From positions 128,001 through 192,000 of the forward strand of contig CAVSZB010000004.1 of the NCBI GenBank assembly GCA_963732385.1: a DNA stretch of 64,000 bases, in the 5' to 3' direction. This stretch comes from an uncultured bacterium (GTDB taxonomy: Bacteria; Krumholzibacteriota; Krumholzibacteriia; LZORAL124-64-63). Made by a program: the position numbers. Below, piece by piece: positions 32,401-41,400 of this stretch (position 1 is the stretch's first letter; the number at the start of each line of letters is the position of its first letter).

Positions 32401-35400
32401 GATTGGCGGCCCACATCGCCAGGAACGGGTCGCAGCGTCCGCGATCGGCGAGCTTTTCGCCCCCGATGAGGAATAGGTAGTAGACCAGGTAGATCCCCAT
32501 CGCTGCAGCCACCGAGACCCCGCGTCCGGAACGTGCGGAACCGAGCGAGAGGGGCAGTCCCCACAGCACGAAGACGAGGCAGGCAAAGGGGATGGCGAAC
32601 TTCTTGTGGTACTCGACCAGATACTTGTTCTCGATCTGCCGGCGGCTGTCGCGCAGGTCCGTCTGGACGCGCGCGGAGCCGGCCGCCAGCTCGACCTCCT
32701 GCTGCGCGGCCCGGAGGACAGCCATCCGGAAGCCTTCCGGAGCCGATTCGTGCGGCGTGGTTCCGCGGCCGAGCAGGAGGGTGCGTTCCTGCGGGTCGAG
32801 AAGCCCCCAGACGCGGCGGGTCAGCCGGGTGGCGAGGTCGGTCGTGTTCGCCAGGATCTCGCTCTGGCCGGCGTGCTCCGCGCGGGCGGCGGCCCGCAGG
32901 GCGGTGAGGTTCATCTCGCGGTCCCCTCGGGAGGTGCGGCCCGATGCTTCGAGATCGCGTTCGGTGTTGCGGACGTACAGGTTGTGCTGGACGAAACGGA
33001 CCACGTCGTAGCGGCCCGGATCGCCGTCGTCAGGCAGGCTGTGGATCTCGCCGTCGTGTAGTTCGAGTACCACGGCATCCTCCGCTGGGCGCGGCACGAG
33101 CAGTCCCCAGGTGGCGGTCGTCAGCCGGGGGCGCAGGTCGCCCGGCTGCGCCTTCTCCAGGATCCGCACCCCGCTCAGCCGGCCGGTGCGGTCGTCCTTC
33201 TCCTCGACCCAGATCGTGACCCGGTCATTCAACTCGGCGAACATCTGCGGACGGATCTCCAGCAGCGGCTTTTTCCGATTGATGTCGAACAACAGGTTGA
33301 CTAGCCTGTGGTTCGCTTCCGGCAGGATGTAGTGGTTATAGGCGGTCAGGCTCAGCGCAACCACGACGCCGCCGGCGAGCAGGGGGCGCAGCAGCGCGTC
33401 GAGGCCGATGCCGCTCGCTTTGAGCGCCACGATCTCATGGTCTGCCGCCAACTGCCCCACGCCCATGAGCACCCCGACCAGCACGGCCATTGGTATGGAT
33501 AATGCAAGTGTATATCCCAGGCTCAGGAACAGCACCTCCGTGGCCAGCAGAAAAGGCACCCCCTTGGTGACGAACATCTCCACGTAGCGATAGAGATCAT
33601 TGATGATGAGCACGAAGGTGATGACGAAGAAACCGAAGGCGAACGGTCCAGCCGTGGCCTTGAGCAAGTGTTTGTAGATCAGGTACATCGATCTCCCGTG
33701 CCCCGGCGCCATCCGGGCGTACTCCCGCGGTTCGTCCGCGCCCCCGGGTGGCCGCCGGAAGGGCGGTCCGGGGGGTGGGGGGCGGGATGATGTGCGTTCC
33801 GGTCCGCAGGGCCCCGGCCGTGGCGGGCGACCCGCCCTGGGGTCACGCTGACCCTTTTGGTGGACGCGGTCGCCCACGGCGACCCAACCGCCGGCGCGGC
33901 ACTGCCGCAGTGTAGCCCCCGGTTCGTTCCGGGACAACGCCGCAGAGACGCCGACGGCCCGGCCGGAGGCGAGAGTCCGCGAAGGAGCCCGGCCGTTGAG
34001 CGCCAGCGCCGTATTGTTGCGCCGACCCGCCCGCCGCCCTCGCCAGGCCTGGCGGCGGGGGACGCTGCCGCCGCCTGTCGCTCTCATCGTGGCCATTTTC
34101 CTGCTCTTGGGCGCCGGTTCTCTCCGGGCCGAGCCTGTCTACGACGGCCCCATCCTGCCCGGCTTCGATCCCCTTCTGGCCGCCACGAACGATCCGCGCC
34201 TGCTGGGCGCCGGGCGTCTGGAAGCCCGCCAGCGGCTGCTAGCCCAGGGCGTCGATCTGGCTCGCCTCGTCGAACATCCCACGCTCGAAAGCGTGCTGCG
34301 CGCGTACTACGACCGCGAGTGGCGGCGCCACCGGGAGCGGCTCGAGACCACGCGTGAGTCGGATCGCATCATCGGCGTGGAGACGACCTTCGAATACCCG
34401 GTCTGGTTCGTGTTGTTCCCGGCTTCCGAGCCGCTGCCGGACGGTTTCACCTGGTGGCCGCCGCGACCGGTCGACGCGGTGGAGGTCCGCGTCACGATCG
34501 AGCGTCCGGAGATCGCCGCGGAACGACGCGCCGACGCGGCCCGACGCGCGGCGTGGGCAGAGCGCCTCGACGTCCGCTCCGGCAAAGGGGGTCGAGGCGG
34601 GAGCGAGGGGCTGCTCAACCTGACCATCCCCATCAAGTTGCCGCACACGCTCGAAAAGATCATCGGCAAGGGCGAAAAAACCAACATCCGGGTGAGTGGG
34701 CGGGAACACATCGCGATCTCGGGCGAAAGCACGGTCATCAAGCCGTTCGTCGGCAACGAACGGCGCAGCAAGCCGAGCCTCTTCCCGAATCTCGACATGG
34801 AACAGCAACTCCAGATCAATCTCTCCGGCACGATCGGCGAGAAGATCATCATGGAAGTGGCCCACAACAGCGAGGTTATCGGCCCCGGCGGGACGACGAT
34901 CAAGCTCTCCTACCGTGGTACCGAGGACGAGGTCATCAAGACCATCGAGACCGGCGACGTCGGCCTGACCCTGCCAGGCAGTCAGCTGCTCGGTTACAGC
35001 TCGAACAAGTCGGGCCTGTTCGGCGTCAAGGTGACCGGGCAGATGGGGCGTGCCGATTTTGCTGTCGTGGTCAGCAAGCAGAAGTCGGAGAGCGCCTCCA
35101 AATCGTTCAACAGCAAGGGAGGCGAGGTCGCCGAGCACATCATCGAATGCCAGAACTACGTGAGCAACCGGTTCTTCTATCTCGACCTCCAGGCCGGATC
35201 CACCGCGTTCGACGGCGTGTTCGACCTCCCCGGGCGACCGGCGGGCTGGACCATCGATCCGCAGTCGGTCCACGTGTACCAGTTCGTGGCGAACGCGCCG
35301 CCGTCGGCGAGCGCGGTCGAGAATGTGGCCCTGTACCTGGATGGCACCGGACGCTGGGATCTCACGGCGGCGCCGTCCCCCTTTCTGGGGCAGCGCTTCA

Positions 35401-38400: not shown

Positions 38401-41400
38401 ATTTCGTGCCGCTGCTGGGATTCCAGGTCCCGATCAACCTCTCGCGACGCCAGGGCATCAGTCGTCCAAAGTACCTGACGAACGACGACGTCGAACTGAT
38501 CGACGAGGATATCCGCAACGCGCAGTCCGGGGTCGATACGCGCGAAAGCTATAGTGTCAGCGTGGCTCGCCAGCCATCGCGCGCCGCAGTGCCGCGCTAC
38601 CTGATTGACCCGTGGCGGTTCTCGCTCAGCGGCGCACGATCGAGCCGTCTCGGGCCGACGGACCGTCAGTGGCAGAGCAATTCACAGGCGACCGTCATCT
38701 ACGATCTGCGCGTCCTCGGCAACTACCGGTTGGGGGACTACCTCTTCTTCGGCGCTGTGCCGCTGCTCAGCGATCTGGCGTTGGCGCCGCGCAAGATCAC
38801 CCTTGGCGGTTCGGTCGGCAGTTCGCGGCAGACGAGCGAGTCGATCGCCCTGAACGGTCTGGTGACGACGCGGCCGATGCAGTACGCGCGGCGGGGCAAC
38901 TTCAACGCCGCGGTGGAGTACGCACCGCTGCGGCTCGCGCAAATCAGCCTGAATCTGAAATCCGATCGCGATTTCCTGCGCCCGCAAACGGGCGCCTTCG
39001 GACTGAATGTCGGGCGGGAGTTGTACTACACGCAGGGTGTCCAGGTGCGGTTCAGCCCTCCCAATGCAGAGCGGTTGCCCGACACCTGGCTGTTGGCGCC
39101 GTTGCGTTACGGGGTGAGCGCCCTGAATTCCATGCGTCCTTCCGTGACCTTCAACGGCCAGTTTGCCGCCAACCGCGATCCGAGTCAGCGCCAGGCGGGC
39201 GATCCGGAGAATGTCCGCTCGGTGTCCAACAGTGGCGACTGGGATGTCCGCCTGAGCCTGCCGATCGACACCTTCATCAAAAGGCGCTTCCCCAATCGTC
39301 GCTCGGTTTCGGACGACCAGCGGCGCCAGACTATCGAGCGTCAGCGCCGTCTGGGGCGGCGGGGCGGCGGCACCGCCGGCGGGGAGGAGTCGCCGGGCGA
39401 CGGGGGGATGCCGCCCGGTCCGACACCGTCGGGAGGCGACGCGTCCCCGGATTCCCTGCAGGCGCCCGGGTCGGGCGGGTCGGACGCGAGCGAACCGGAG
39501 TCAGTCGCCACCTCGCCGTCGGAAGAGGAACTGCTCACCCCCGAGGATCGGCAGCGCCGTGAAGATGAGGCCCTGCTCGAACAGGCGCGCGAATTGGAGG
39601 AACGCGAACGCGCCGAGAGCGCCAGGCGCGCGTCGCCCGACACGTCCTCTGCGCCGGCGGAGAGGGGGGGAGGCCGCCGCTGGCTGCGGGTGCCTGATCC
39701 GCGCCAGGCAGCGATCCACCTCCTGCGCGGCCTGAGTCCCGTGCAGGCGTCCTACAGCCTGCGCAAGCAGAGCCAGTACAGCCGCCTCGCCGGGGCCGAC
39801 GAATTCTGGTATCGCACCGGGCTCTCGTCGCGGCTCGAGCAGCCCGACACCGCATACGTGTCGGCCCAGTTCAGCGAGCGCCGTACGAAATCGCTTTCGA
39901 GCAGCCTCAAACTCGCGCGCAGCGTAACCGCCGACGTGAAGTTCAGTCAGACCATCAGCAACCAGGACGGGGGCGGTCTGCGGCGCGATAATTACGAGGT
40001 CATCTGGCCTGATCTGCGACTGGCGATTGCCGGCGTGGAGCGGTGGCGGGTGTTCGGGGGGGGGGGCGGCGACGGCTGGTTCCGTTCCTCGAACATCGAC
40101 GTGGGCTACAAGTTCGCCAAGAACGTGAACGGGGCGACGTCCACGACCTACAACCCGAGGATGTCAACGTCGATCACGCCGCGCTGGAATTTCACCTTCG
40201 CCAGCGGAATGAGCGCTTCTCTGAACGGGGGCCTGACGCACGATCGGACCATCACCAACGGCACGATCGTCGATGCGCGGCGCCTGAACGTGGGGTTGCA
40301 GGTGCGTCACAGCTTCCGCGCCGAGAAGCTGCTGGCGAAGGTGAACCTGTACCGGCCGGGAAACACCCCGACCATCAATTTGGACTTCGGCGTGAACTAC
40401 AGTCGCGACACCAGCGAGCGTCTCGTGCCGGGCGCCACTGTCGCCGACGCGCGCACCGGGAATTCGCGGCTCGGGATCAATCCGCGGTTCAGCTACCAGG
40501 TGACCCGGAATCTCTCGGGCGCGCTGCGGTTCGTGTTTTCGCGGAACAAGGTGGATGCGACCAACACCAGCACCATTACCTTCGGTCTCGGTCTGGAGGC
40601 GACATTTGTCTTCTAAGGTTATTTCGGTCGGTGGTGTCGCCACGCCGCGGGGGACCGCAGTGGTGGCGGTGCTGCTGCTGCTGGTGCTCGCTCCGCTCGC
40701 CCCCGGCGCGCGCGCCGTGCCGCCCGCGCCCGTACCGGTCCCCGCCTTCTCGGGCGCCCGCGCCATGTCCTGGCTGCGCGTCCAGTGCGCTTTCGGGCCG
40801 CGTCATCCCGGATCGCCGGGGCAGCATCGTCTGCGGCGCCTGATCAGCGCCCACGCCGACTCGCTCGGGCTGCCCTGCGCGCCGGTCTGTTTCACGCTGG
40901 ACGATCCCTACGGCGACGGTCGGCTCGAAGTCTGTAATTATGTGGTCTCGGCGGGGCCGTCGGGAGGGCAGCGGCTCTGGATCGCCGCGCATTACGACAC
41001 CCGCCCCCGCAGCGACCGCGACCCCGACCCGCGGCTGGCCGCCCTCCCCCTGATCGGCGCGAACGACGGTGCGAGCGGCGTGGCCGTCCTGCTGCACCTG
41101 GCGGAACTGCTGGCGGCGCACCCCCCGGCGCGCGGTGTGGATCTCCTCTTTCTCGACGCGGAGGACTATGGACGGGAGGGGGATCCGGCCAATTACTGCC
41201 TCGGTGCGACCCGTCTGGCGGCGCACTGGCGCGACTTCGGCAGCCCTCTGGCCGGCGGCAGTCCTGAGGGGCTCGTACTGCTCGACATGGTCGGAAAACG
41301 GGATCTGGCCATCCCCATGGAAGGGTATTCGCTGCGTCTGGCCGGTGCGTGGACGCGAACTGTCTTCGACCGGGCCGCAGAACTCGGGCTGGACGCCTGC

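What a model noticed while it worked through the whole genome (the two positions that open the first line are those of the whole stretch)
33996..40616. Type IX secretion system without the GldKLMN motor and ring: SprA, PorU, PorV, PorX and 83 cargo proteins
The genome has the T9SS translocon SprA (g00956), the sortase PorU with PorV (C7:221474-227058), PorX (C8:170083) and 83 proteins with a T9SS C-terminal domain, but no detectable GldL/GldM motor or GldK/GldN ring. The same holds across the phylum, so this T9SS must be energised by something else or by motor subunits too diverged to detect.
Evidence so far: SprA over the TIGR04189 cut-off; PorU model matched over positions 5-1077, 417 bits against a cut-off of 420; five PorV/PorQ paralogs, PorX at E 2e-191, 83 CTD proteins making up 5.8% of non-C2 residues. 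SprA found in 121 of 121 phylum genomes; GldL_N, GldN and GldM in 0 of the same 121. The same three models hit 4 of 4 Bacteroidota controls at E<=2e-27 and miss this genome. GldK over cut-off in 2 of 2 controls and 0 of 3 Krumholzibacteriota.
(Added by a program. Inside this text positions count along the whole contig: contig position 128,001 is position 1 of the stretch shown here. "Call 12" and the like, gene names such as g00115 and contig names such as C1 are that model's own, and its searches are not shown. The text may have been shortened before it was handed on; [...] marks where a part breaks off. The agent that wrote the report below was given it as the finding of a first reader that could run no searches.)

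Follow-up and report, generated by a model that had tools for sequence, protein, structure and literature searches.

The report
Protein secretion pore without its motor
A whole group of uncultured bacteria has the outer-membrane pore, shuttle and anchoring enzyme of type IX protein secretion but no detectable trace of the proton motor thought to be needed to run it, so the system must work in a simpler, still untested way.

Summary
Confirmed and extended. Window 33996-40616 encodes a true SprA translocon (452 bits, cut-off 200). SprA and PorU occur in 131 of 131 Krumholzibacteriota genomes searched; GldK, GldL, GldM, GldN, PorG and Plug pass their cut-offs in none. Home-built profiles (all held-out controls found), topology screens, Pfam scans and profile-profile tests on this genome and 94% of a distant relative found no hidden GldL/GldM pair. 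New here: a SprE homologue lacking the finger region, a PorZ-like gene, an intact PorU catalytic pair, and a conserved porU operon with a second SprA-like barrel. Most likely the lack of the Gld energy chain is real (0.8). How cargo is released is open: unpowered ratchet closed by PorU (0.4), TonB-ExbBD pull (0.3), hidden motor (0.15). Not first of its kind: two papers list similar incomplete sets in other lineages without discussing power, and this scan noted the side modules, and divergent GldLM-like pairs, on other DNA. It matters because it questions the proposal that type IX secretion arose within the gliding machinery.

The parts
33996..40616 (+). sprA/sov, T9SS outer-membrane translocon (2175-2206 aa by start codon); the other T9SS genes lie outside the window (see full report)
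   Evidence: TIGR04189 451.9 bits vs 200; PDB 6h3i/6h3j E 9e-33; conserved over its length in 31- and 51-sequence alignments
1221..2888 (-). T9SS cargo gene with a type A C-terminal domain (555 aa)
   Evidence: best TIGR04183 hit of the genome, 42.4 bits, at C4:129233-129472 = window 1233-1472; gene call
32267..33688 (-). lptF, divergent neighbour of sprA (conserved context, not a T9SS part)
   Evidence: LptF/LptG families; beside sprA in 27 of 27 related loci
31197..32321 (-). lptG (conserved context)
   Evidence: 24 of 27 loci
40660..41595 (+). M28 peptidase gene downstream of sprA (conserved context; role in secretion unknown)
   Evidence: PF04389 102 bits; 22 of 27 loci

Best explanation
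A working type IX secretion system made only of outer-membrane and periplasmic parts, with no Gld energy chain (about 0.8 that the absence is real). Cargo crosses the inner membrane by Sec, its CTD binds PorV loops inside SprA, the PorV-cargo complex leaves through the lateral gate, and PorU cuts the CTD and attaches the protein at the surface, with a PorZ-like partner. These steps are inferred from homology to F. johnsoniae and P. gingivalis; the genes and the PorU His/Cys pair are shown. For the release step I favour an unpowered ratchet: PorV-cargo comes off a looser translocon by diffusion, helped by a shortened SprE and Skp, and export is made one-way by PorU cleavage and by dedicated PorV paralogues that hold their cargo. 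This step is inference only.
For: Motor, ring, PorG handle and Plug are all undetected together. Profiles built from 51-69 fetched gldKLMN loci recovered every held-out control (34 of 34, 31 of 31, 25 of 25, 26 of 26) yet found no GldL, GldM or GldN in six-frame ORFs of G000 or G025. hhalign of GldL-TM and GldM-N profiles against 327 of 327 shared hydrophobic proteins gave at most 6% probability, controls 99.7-100%. No GldL/GldM-type adjacent pair by topology. 176 of 189 scanned shared membrane-type proteins plus most extras had a Pfam family; the unassigned ones are pilins, lipoproteins or barrels by eye. The SprE homologue spans the finger region in 48-49 residues against a median of about 230 in relatives. 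No conserved cysteine for a PorG-type disulfide link in SprA, PorV, the twin DUF5683-like proteins, the second barrel or the Omp85 protein. Cargo loading needs no energy in vitro (PMC10994853, passages). PorU His/Cys intact in 19 of 19.
Against: In F. johnsoniae, removing the motor traps cargo on the translocon, and SprE, which is kept here, is needed for release (PMC10994853): a kept SprE may mean a kept link to some energiser. Cargo up to 2677 aa in G000 and 4554 aa in G025 is hard to picture without a pull. No Plug leaves the idle pore unexplained. The NHL lipoprotein has one cysteine column in 8 of 15. My profiles were built from canonical sequences picked by one motif, and this scan's earlier notes describe GldLM-like pairs in other lineages that fail every standard model; I had no sequences of those. 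6% of G025 was not read and G000 is 95.8% complete. Secretion itself is not shown.
Confidence: 0.4

Rival explanations
1. A TonB-ExbB-ExbD motor powers release in place of GldLM, pulling on the extended translocon or on a PorF-like TonB-dependent barrel.
For: G025 (94% read) has only two MotA/ExbB-type motors, ExbB-ExbD-ExbD-TonB and TolQRA. That ExbB is in 127 of 131 genomes, a PorV paralogue in 129 of 131, and they lie within 7 kb in all 109 of 125 genomes where both share a contig. Both ExbD keep the membrane aspartate. 3 of the 150 best SprE-like representatives, and P0251/P0252, end in a TonB_C domain over Pfam's cut-off. PMC7323717 lists PorF among the 11 parts kept by its motor-less class.
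Against: The operon has its own TonB-dependent receptor with a plug, the natural client, and a second receptor-cargo-PorV unit exists at C3:443513-450994. The fusions come from unnamed sources, are 2% of representatives, were not seen in Krumholzibacteriota members, and a TonB_C on an outer-membrane lipoprotein cannot be driven in the usual way. No TonB box was identified on SprA or PorV.
Confidence: 0.3
2. A GldL/GldM-like motor exists but is too diverged, or not adjacent, to be found.
For: Earlier notes of this scan report such pairs in Ignavibacteria, Kapabacteria and Fidelibacterota (unchecked). Core T9SS orthologues are only 22-32% identical between G000 and G025, so a fast-evolving pair could escape BLAST pairing. 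The authors of PMC7323717 raise this for missing parts generally.
Against: Topology screens do not depend on homology and found no fitting pair in either genome (two G025 pairs not shared with G000 were left unidentified). negative with working controls. FGE-sulfatase lipoproteins reach 64-119 bits on GldK (cut-off 350) and are not syntenic.
Confidence: 0.15
3. An unrelated energiser (Tol-Pal, an ABC/MacB system, or parts of the porU operon) does the work.
For: TolQRA is shared by G000 and G025; TolC and MacAB genes follow tonB; the porU operon holds five unstudied envelope genes kept across families.
Against: None of the porU-operon proteins looks like an inner-membrane motor: all have signal-peptide-like starts and most end like outer-membrane proteins. 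No link of Tol-Pal to T9SS genes was seen.
Confidence: 0.1
4. The system does not export in the T9SS manner, or the absence is an assembly artefact.
For: All genomes are metagenome bins; secretion is not observed.
Against: 131 of 131 keep SprA and PorU, including single-contig genomes; 84-86 cargo genes in G000 and 37 in G025; catalytic pair intact.
Confidence: 0.05

Closest known systems
Type IX secretion system of Flavobacterium johnsoniae / Porphyromonas gingivalis (SprA 6h3i, extended translocon 8gl8, PorKN ring, GldLM motor)
   Same: SprA, PorV, PorU with catalytic pair, PorX with an adjacent histidine kinase, type A CTD cargo, Skp, a SprE homologue (E 9e-17, end to end), a PorZ-like protein.
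   Different: No detectable GldK/L/M/N, PorG-family protein or Plug; SprE lacks the finger region; porU sits in an operon with two DUF5683-like genes, an NHL lipoprotein, a second SprA-like barrel and an Omp85 protein; PorV paralogues sit behind dedicated cargo genes.
Incomplete T9SS sets already in print: 'Incertae sedis' class of Bacteroidetes (PMC7323717) and Ignavibacterium/Melioribacter (PMC11705866)
   Same: [quoted passage not shown] PMC11705866: PorV, SprA and Plug only. That the class is the Rhodothermus/Salinibacter group is recalled, not seen in the text.
   Different: Neither passage discusses how such a system is powered; neither covers this phylum; both missed SprE-like proteins, which my search links to Melioribacteraceae/Ignavibacteriales records. 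Ignavibacteria are said to keep Plug; here it is undetected.
SusC/SusD-type TonB-dependent uptake units (recalled)
   Same: Receptor with CarboxypepD_reg domain and plug, surface partner, own ExbBD-TonB.
   Different: The partner is a CTD protein with its own PorV paralogue rather than a SusD lipoprotein.

Membership tests
T9SS (canonical) | SprA/Sov translocon | tested here: met
T9SS (canonical) | PorV shuttle beside PorU | tested here: met
   PorV/PorQ family 186 bits vs 90; strict PorV model 114 vs 250; behind porU in 18 of 19 loci
T9SS (canonical) | PorU sortase with His/Cys pair | tested here: met
   416 vs 420 bits here, 104 of 131 over cut-off; pair intact 19 of 19
T9SS (canonical) | Cargo with C-terminal CTD and signal peptide | tested here: met
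   (80 of 86 with an N-terminal hydrophobic stretch, background 1510 of 3044, lenient test)
T9SS (canonical) | GldL/GldM motor | tested here: not met
T9SS (canonical) | GldK/GldN ring | tested here: not met
   one search had no positive control of its own
T9SS (canonical) | PorG disulfide handle | tested here: inconclusive
   DUF6089 0 of 131 with no positive control; that DUF6089 is the PorG family is recalled
T9SS (canonical) | Plug | tested here: inconclusive
   PF17116 0 of 131, no positive control
T9SS (canonical) | SprE/PorW | tested here: inconclusive
   family profile hits 8gl8 SprE at E 9e-17 from the N terminus, best natural chain; single sequence does not; 75 bits vs cut-off 250
T9SS (canonical) | PorZ | tested here: inconclusive
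   propeller plus CTD, NF052228 93 bits vs 260 for the G025 orthologue
T9SS (canonical) | Proton-gradient-dependent export | not testable with these tools
   needs a culture

The most novel reading that the evidence does not exclude
The outer-membrane core of type IX secretion is older than the gliding motor: the ancestral system, kept in Krumholzibacteriota and other deep FCB lineages, is driven by a TonB-ExbBD pull relayed through SprE, and GldKLMN was grafted on later in gliding Bacteroidota.
Probability: 0.2. Interest if true: 0.9.

Novelty: new variant of a known kind. Interest (0 to 1): 0.63.

Why it matters
Current models make the GldLM motor and GldKN ring essential and propose that T9SS first evolved as part of the gliding machinery (PMC12635249, Discussion). 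A phylum that keeps SprA, PorU and dozens of cargo genes in every genome searched with no detectable motor suggests the pore can work without it, or with another power source. That turns the open question of what the motor does in export into a direct test, and means detection tools that require Gld genes will miss these systems.

Tried and rejected
Weak GldL/GldL_N hits: 17 loci read; they were efflux pumps, NADH dehydrogenase subunits, sensors, an ABC ATPase and a chemoreceptor-like protein. FGE-sulfatase lipoproteins as GldK: rejected on score and lack of synteny. The MotA-like/vWA/FGE cluster at C2:34-41 kb: C2 is probably foreign (15 of 250 genes paired with G025 against 17-48% for other contigs; no CTD genes). 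Flagellar-type MotAB loci at C7:456 kb and C3:93 kb: no counterpart in the part of G025 read. Complex prediction of the G025 SprE-like protein with TonB: no verdict, score 0.00. RNA: one run with a small share of words; contigs of relatives cover gene and intergenic DNA alike, so expression is not shown. Recalled GldL/GldM motifs: no fitting match. Literature searches gave no paper on T9SS in this phylum; PMC11495043 names the phylum but not T9SS in it (passages). No genome of another phylum could be searched, so the wider distribution rests on papers and unchecked notes.
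Full report
What is in the window. The ORF at 33996-40616 (+) is SprA: TIGR04189 scores 451.9 bits against 200, and F. johnsoniae SprA is the only PDB sequence hit (E 9e-33, four stretches). It lies divergent from lptF-lptG and ahead of an M28 peptidase gene; lptF is beside it in 27 of 27 related loci, lptG in 24. Record titles and names place the relatives in Krumholzibacteriota. The window is G000:C4:128001-192000.

The rest of the system in G000. PorU (C7:221474-225964, 416 of 420 bits), PorV behind it, PorX (635 bits) behind a histidine kinase. The PorU His/Cys pair is intact in 19 of 19 genomes. 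CTD genes number 62 over the TIGR04183 cut-off among 67 matches and 84-86 with a lineage profile; G025 has 37 in the part read. Five PorV-family genes pass the cut-off; four of the PorV-family barrels I looked at sit directly behind a CTD-type gene, two of them in TonB-dependent-receptor units. The last has a relative in 130 of 131 genomes at E 1e-5 (generic TPR cross-hits may add to this). Its family shares a C-x-YFNTYYNA start, and the family profile matches F. johnsoniae SprE from the N terminus at E 9e-17, the best natural chain behind seven engineered repeat proteins; the single sequence does not. Five Krumholzibacteriota-type members span the finger region in 48-49 residues, against a median near 230 in 50 sampled of 150 representatives.

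The porU operon. In 19 loci from different families the order is porU, porV (18), an M6-like CTD protein (13), DUF5683-like paralogues (16, usually two), an NHL lipoprotein (15), a 1130-aa protein (15 by the automatic caller, which missed it in G000 where it is present) and an Omp85 protein (15). The 1130-aa protein folds as a giant beta-barrel (pLDDT 86); its four best Foldseek hits are SprA (E 7e-10) but TM-scores are only 0.24-0.28. None of these genes looks like an inner-membrane motor.

What is missing. SprA is found in 131 of 131 genomes and PorU in 131 of 131. Over cut-off, GldL, GldM, GldN and GldK are found in 0 of 131 and GldL_N in 0 of 201. At loose thresholds GldL rang in 33 of 131 and GldL_N in 41 of 201, as they did in 9 and 6 of 14 unrelated controls; 17 such loci were read and were other proteins. 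Plug and DUF6089 models give 0 of 131 at E 0.01, without a positive control. To get one, I fetched metagenome loci holding gldM and built profiles from 51-69 sequences per gene: half-set profiles found all held-out members (lowest 49-514 bits), while full profiles with filters off found no GldL, GldM or GldN in G000 or G025 (best E 0.17 for GldL; a 0.002 hit of the GldM N-terminal profile was Skp) and only generic FGE proteins for GldK, at most 105 bits.

Search for a hidden motor. G000 and G025 (another family, 44% G+C, 2.44 of 2.60 Mb read) share 1105 reciprocal best hits. Topology screens gave 13 pairs in G000 and 10 in G025, none GldL/GldM-like by eye; two G025 pairs without G000 partners stayed unidentified. 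Of 192 shared proteins with 1-4 hydrophobic segments, 189 were scanned with Pfam (3 cut by locus edges were left out), along with 16 others; 13 of the 205 had no family, and these were pilin-like, lipoproteins, barrels or secreted proteins. hhalign of GldL-TM and GldM-N profiles against 327 shared hydrophobic pairs gave at most 6% probability; GldN was run on the first 103 only, at most 8%. These templates held two sequences each, so the test is modest. It cannot exclude the divergent GldLM-like pairs that earlier notes of this scan describe in other lineages, for which I had no sequences.

Candidate substitute. G025 has two MotA/ExbB-type motors in the part read. One, ExbB-ExbD-ExbD-TonB, sits in a unit with a TonB-dependent receptor, a CTD protein, a PorV paralogue and GWxTD genes. 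Its ExbB is in 127 of 131 genomes and the PorV paralogue in 129; of 125 with both, 109 share a contig and all 109 lie within 7 kb, 16 are on separate contigs (for G106 I used the weaker of two ExbB matches). It is G025's only clear receptor. Such retention could mean a housekeeping role in secretion or simply essential uptake; the receptor is the obvious client. SprE-like proteins fused to TonB_C occur in 3 of 150 representatives, from unnamed sources.

Mechanism. [quoted passage not shown] Here motor, track, handle and Plug are all undetected and SprE is cut down, which reads most simply as a simpler machine: loading as in F. johnsoniae, release by diffusion, direction from PorU (0.4). TonB-driven release is close behind (0.3), a hidden GldLM less likely (0.15). 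Genes and motifs are shown; every functional step is inferred.

Novelty. PMC7323717 (passages and second part of Discussion) reports a class with only 11 components, lacking K, L, M, N and G; PMC11705866 (passages) says Ignavibacterium and Melioribacter have PorV, SprA and Plug only. PMC11285876 (passage) lists FCB phyla that may have T9SS, not this one. Also seen as passages: PMC11205867, PMC8754138, 10.1101/031039, PMC10202324, PMC11495043; term searches in PMC5445135 and PMC12618676 found nothing. No supplements were read. So the motor-less state has precedent as a remark, but a phylum-wide case with sensitive tests, a finger-less SprE and the TonB lead was not found in print (searches; subscription journals are mostly outside the library). 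Verdict: a real, new variant of a known system; interest 0.63.

Noticed in passing
G000 C7:221474-225964 (L007:1474-5964): PorU is fused at its N terminus to a small hydrophobic protein that is a separate 134-aa gene in other families; the fusion also appears in L078 and L079.
   Followed up: partly
G000 C7:233555-238910 (L007:13555-18910): Second, half-size SprA-like giant barrel next to its own Omp85 protein in the porU operon; no family; Atlas neighbours unnamed.
   Followed up: partly
G000 C7:230717-232533 (L007:10717-12533): Twin DUF5683-like secreted proteins, helical with a C-terminal strand pair ending in an aromatic residue; possible oligomeric outer-membrane part.
   Followed up: partly
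proteins P0251, P0252, P0365, P0388, P0396: SprE-like lipoproteins fused to a TonB C-terminal domain, lineage unknown.
   Followed up: partly
G000 contig C2 (283 kb): Probably foreign to the bin: 6% of genes pair with G025, no CTD genes.
   Followed up: partly
G000 C7:37370-43143 (L009): TonB-like, ExbB, ExbD genes directly ahead of a lipoprotein and a BamG-like barrel (97 of 250 bits); the motor genes have no orthologue beside them in G025.
   Followed up: no
G000 C8:358955-366988 and G025 L209:3620-17284: Very large CTD-type proteins (2677 and 4554 aa) each paired with a PorV-TPR fusion gene.
   Followed up: no
G025 L185:3568-5039 and L195:6256-7153: Two membrane-protein gene pairs from the topology screen with no G000 partner; unidentified.
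   Followed up: no
window 47270-48676: RbfA fused to a DHH/NrnA phosphoesterase; separate genes in G025.
   Followed up: no
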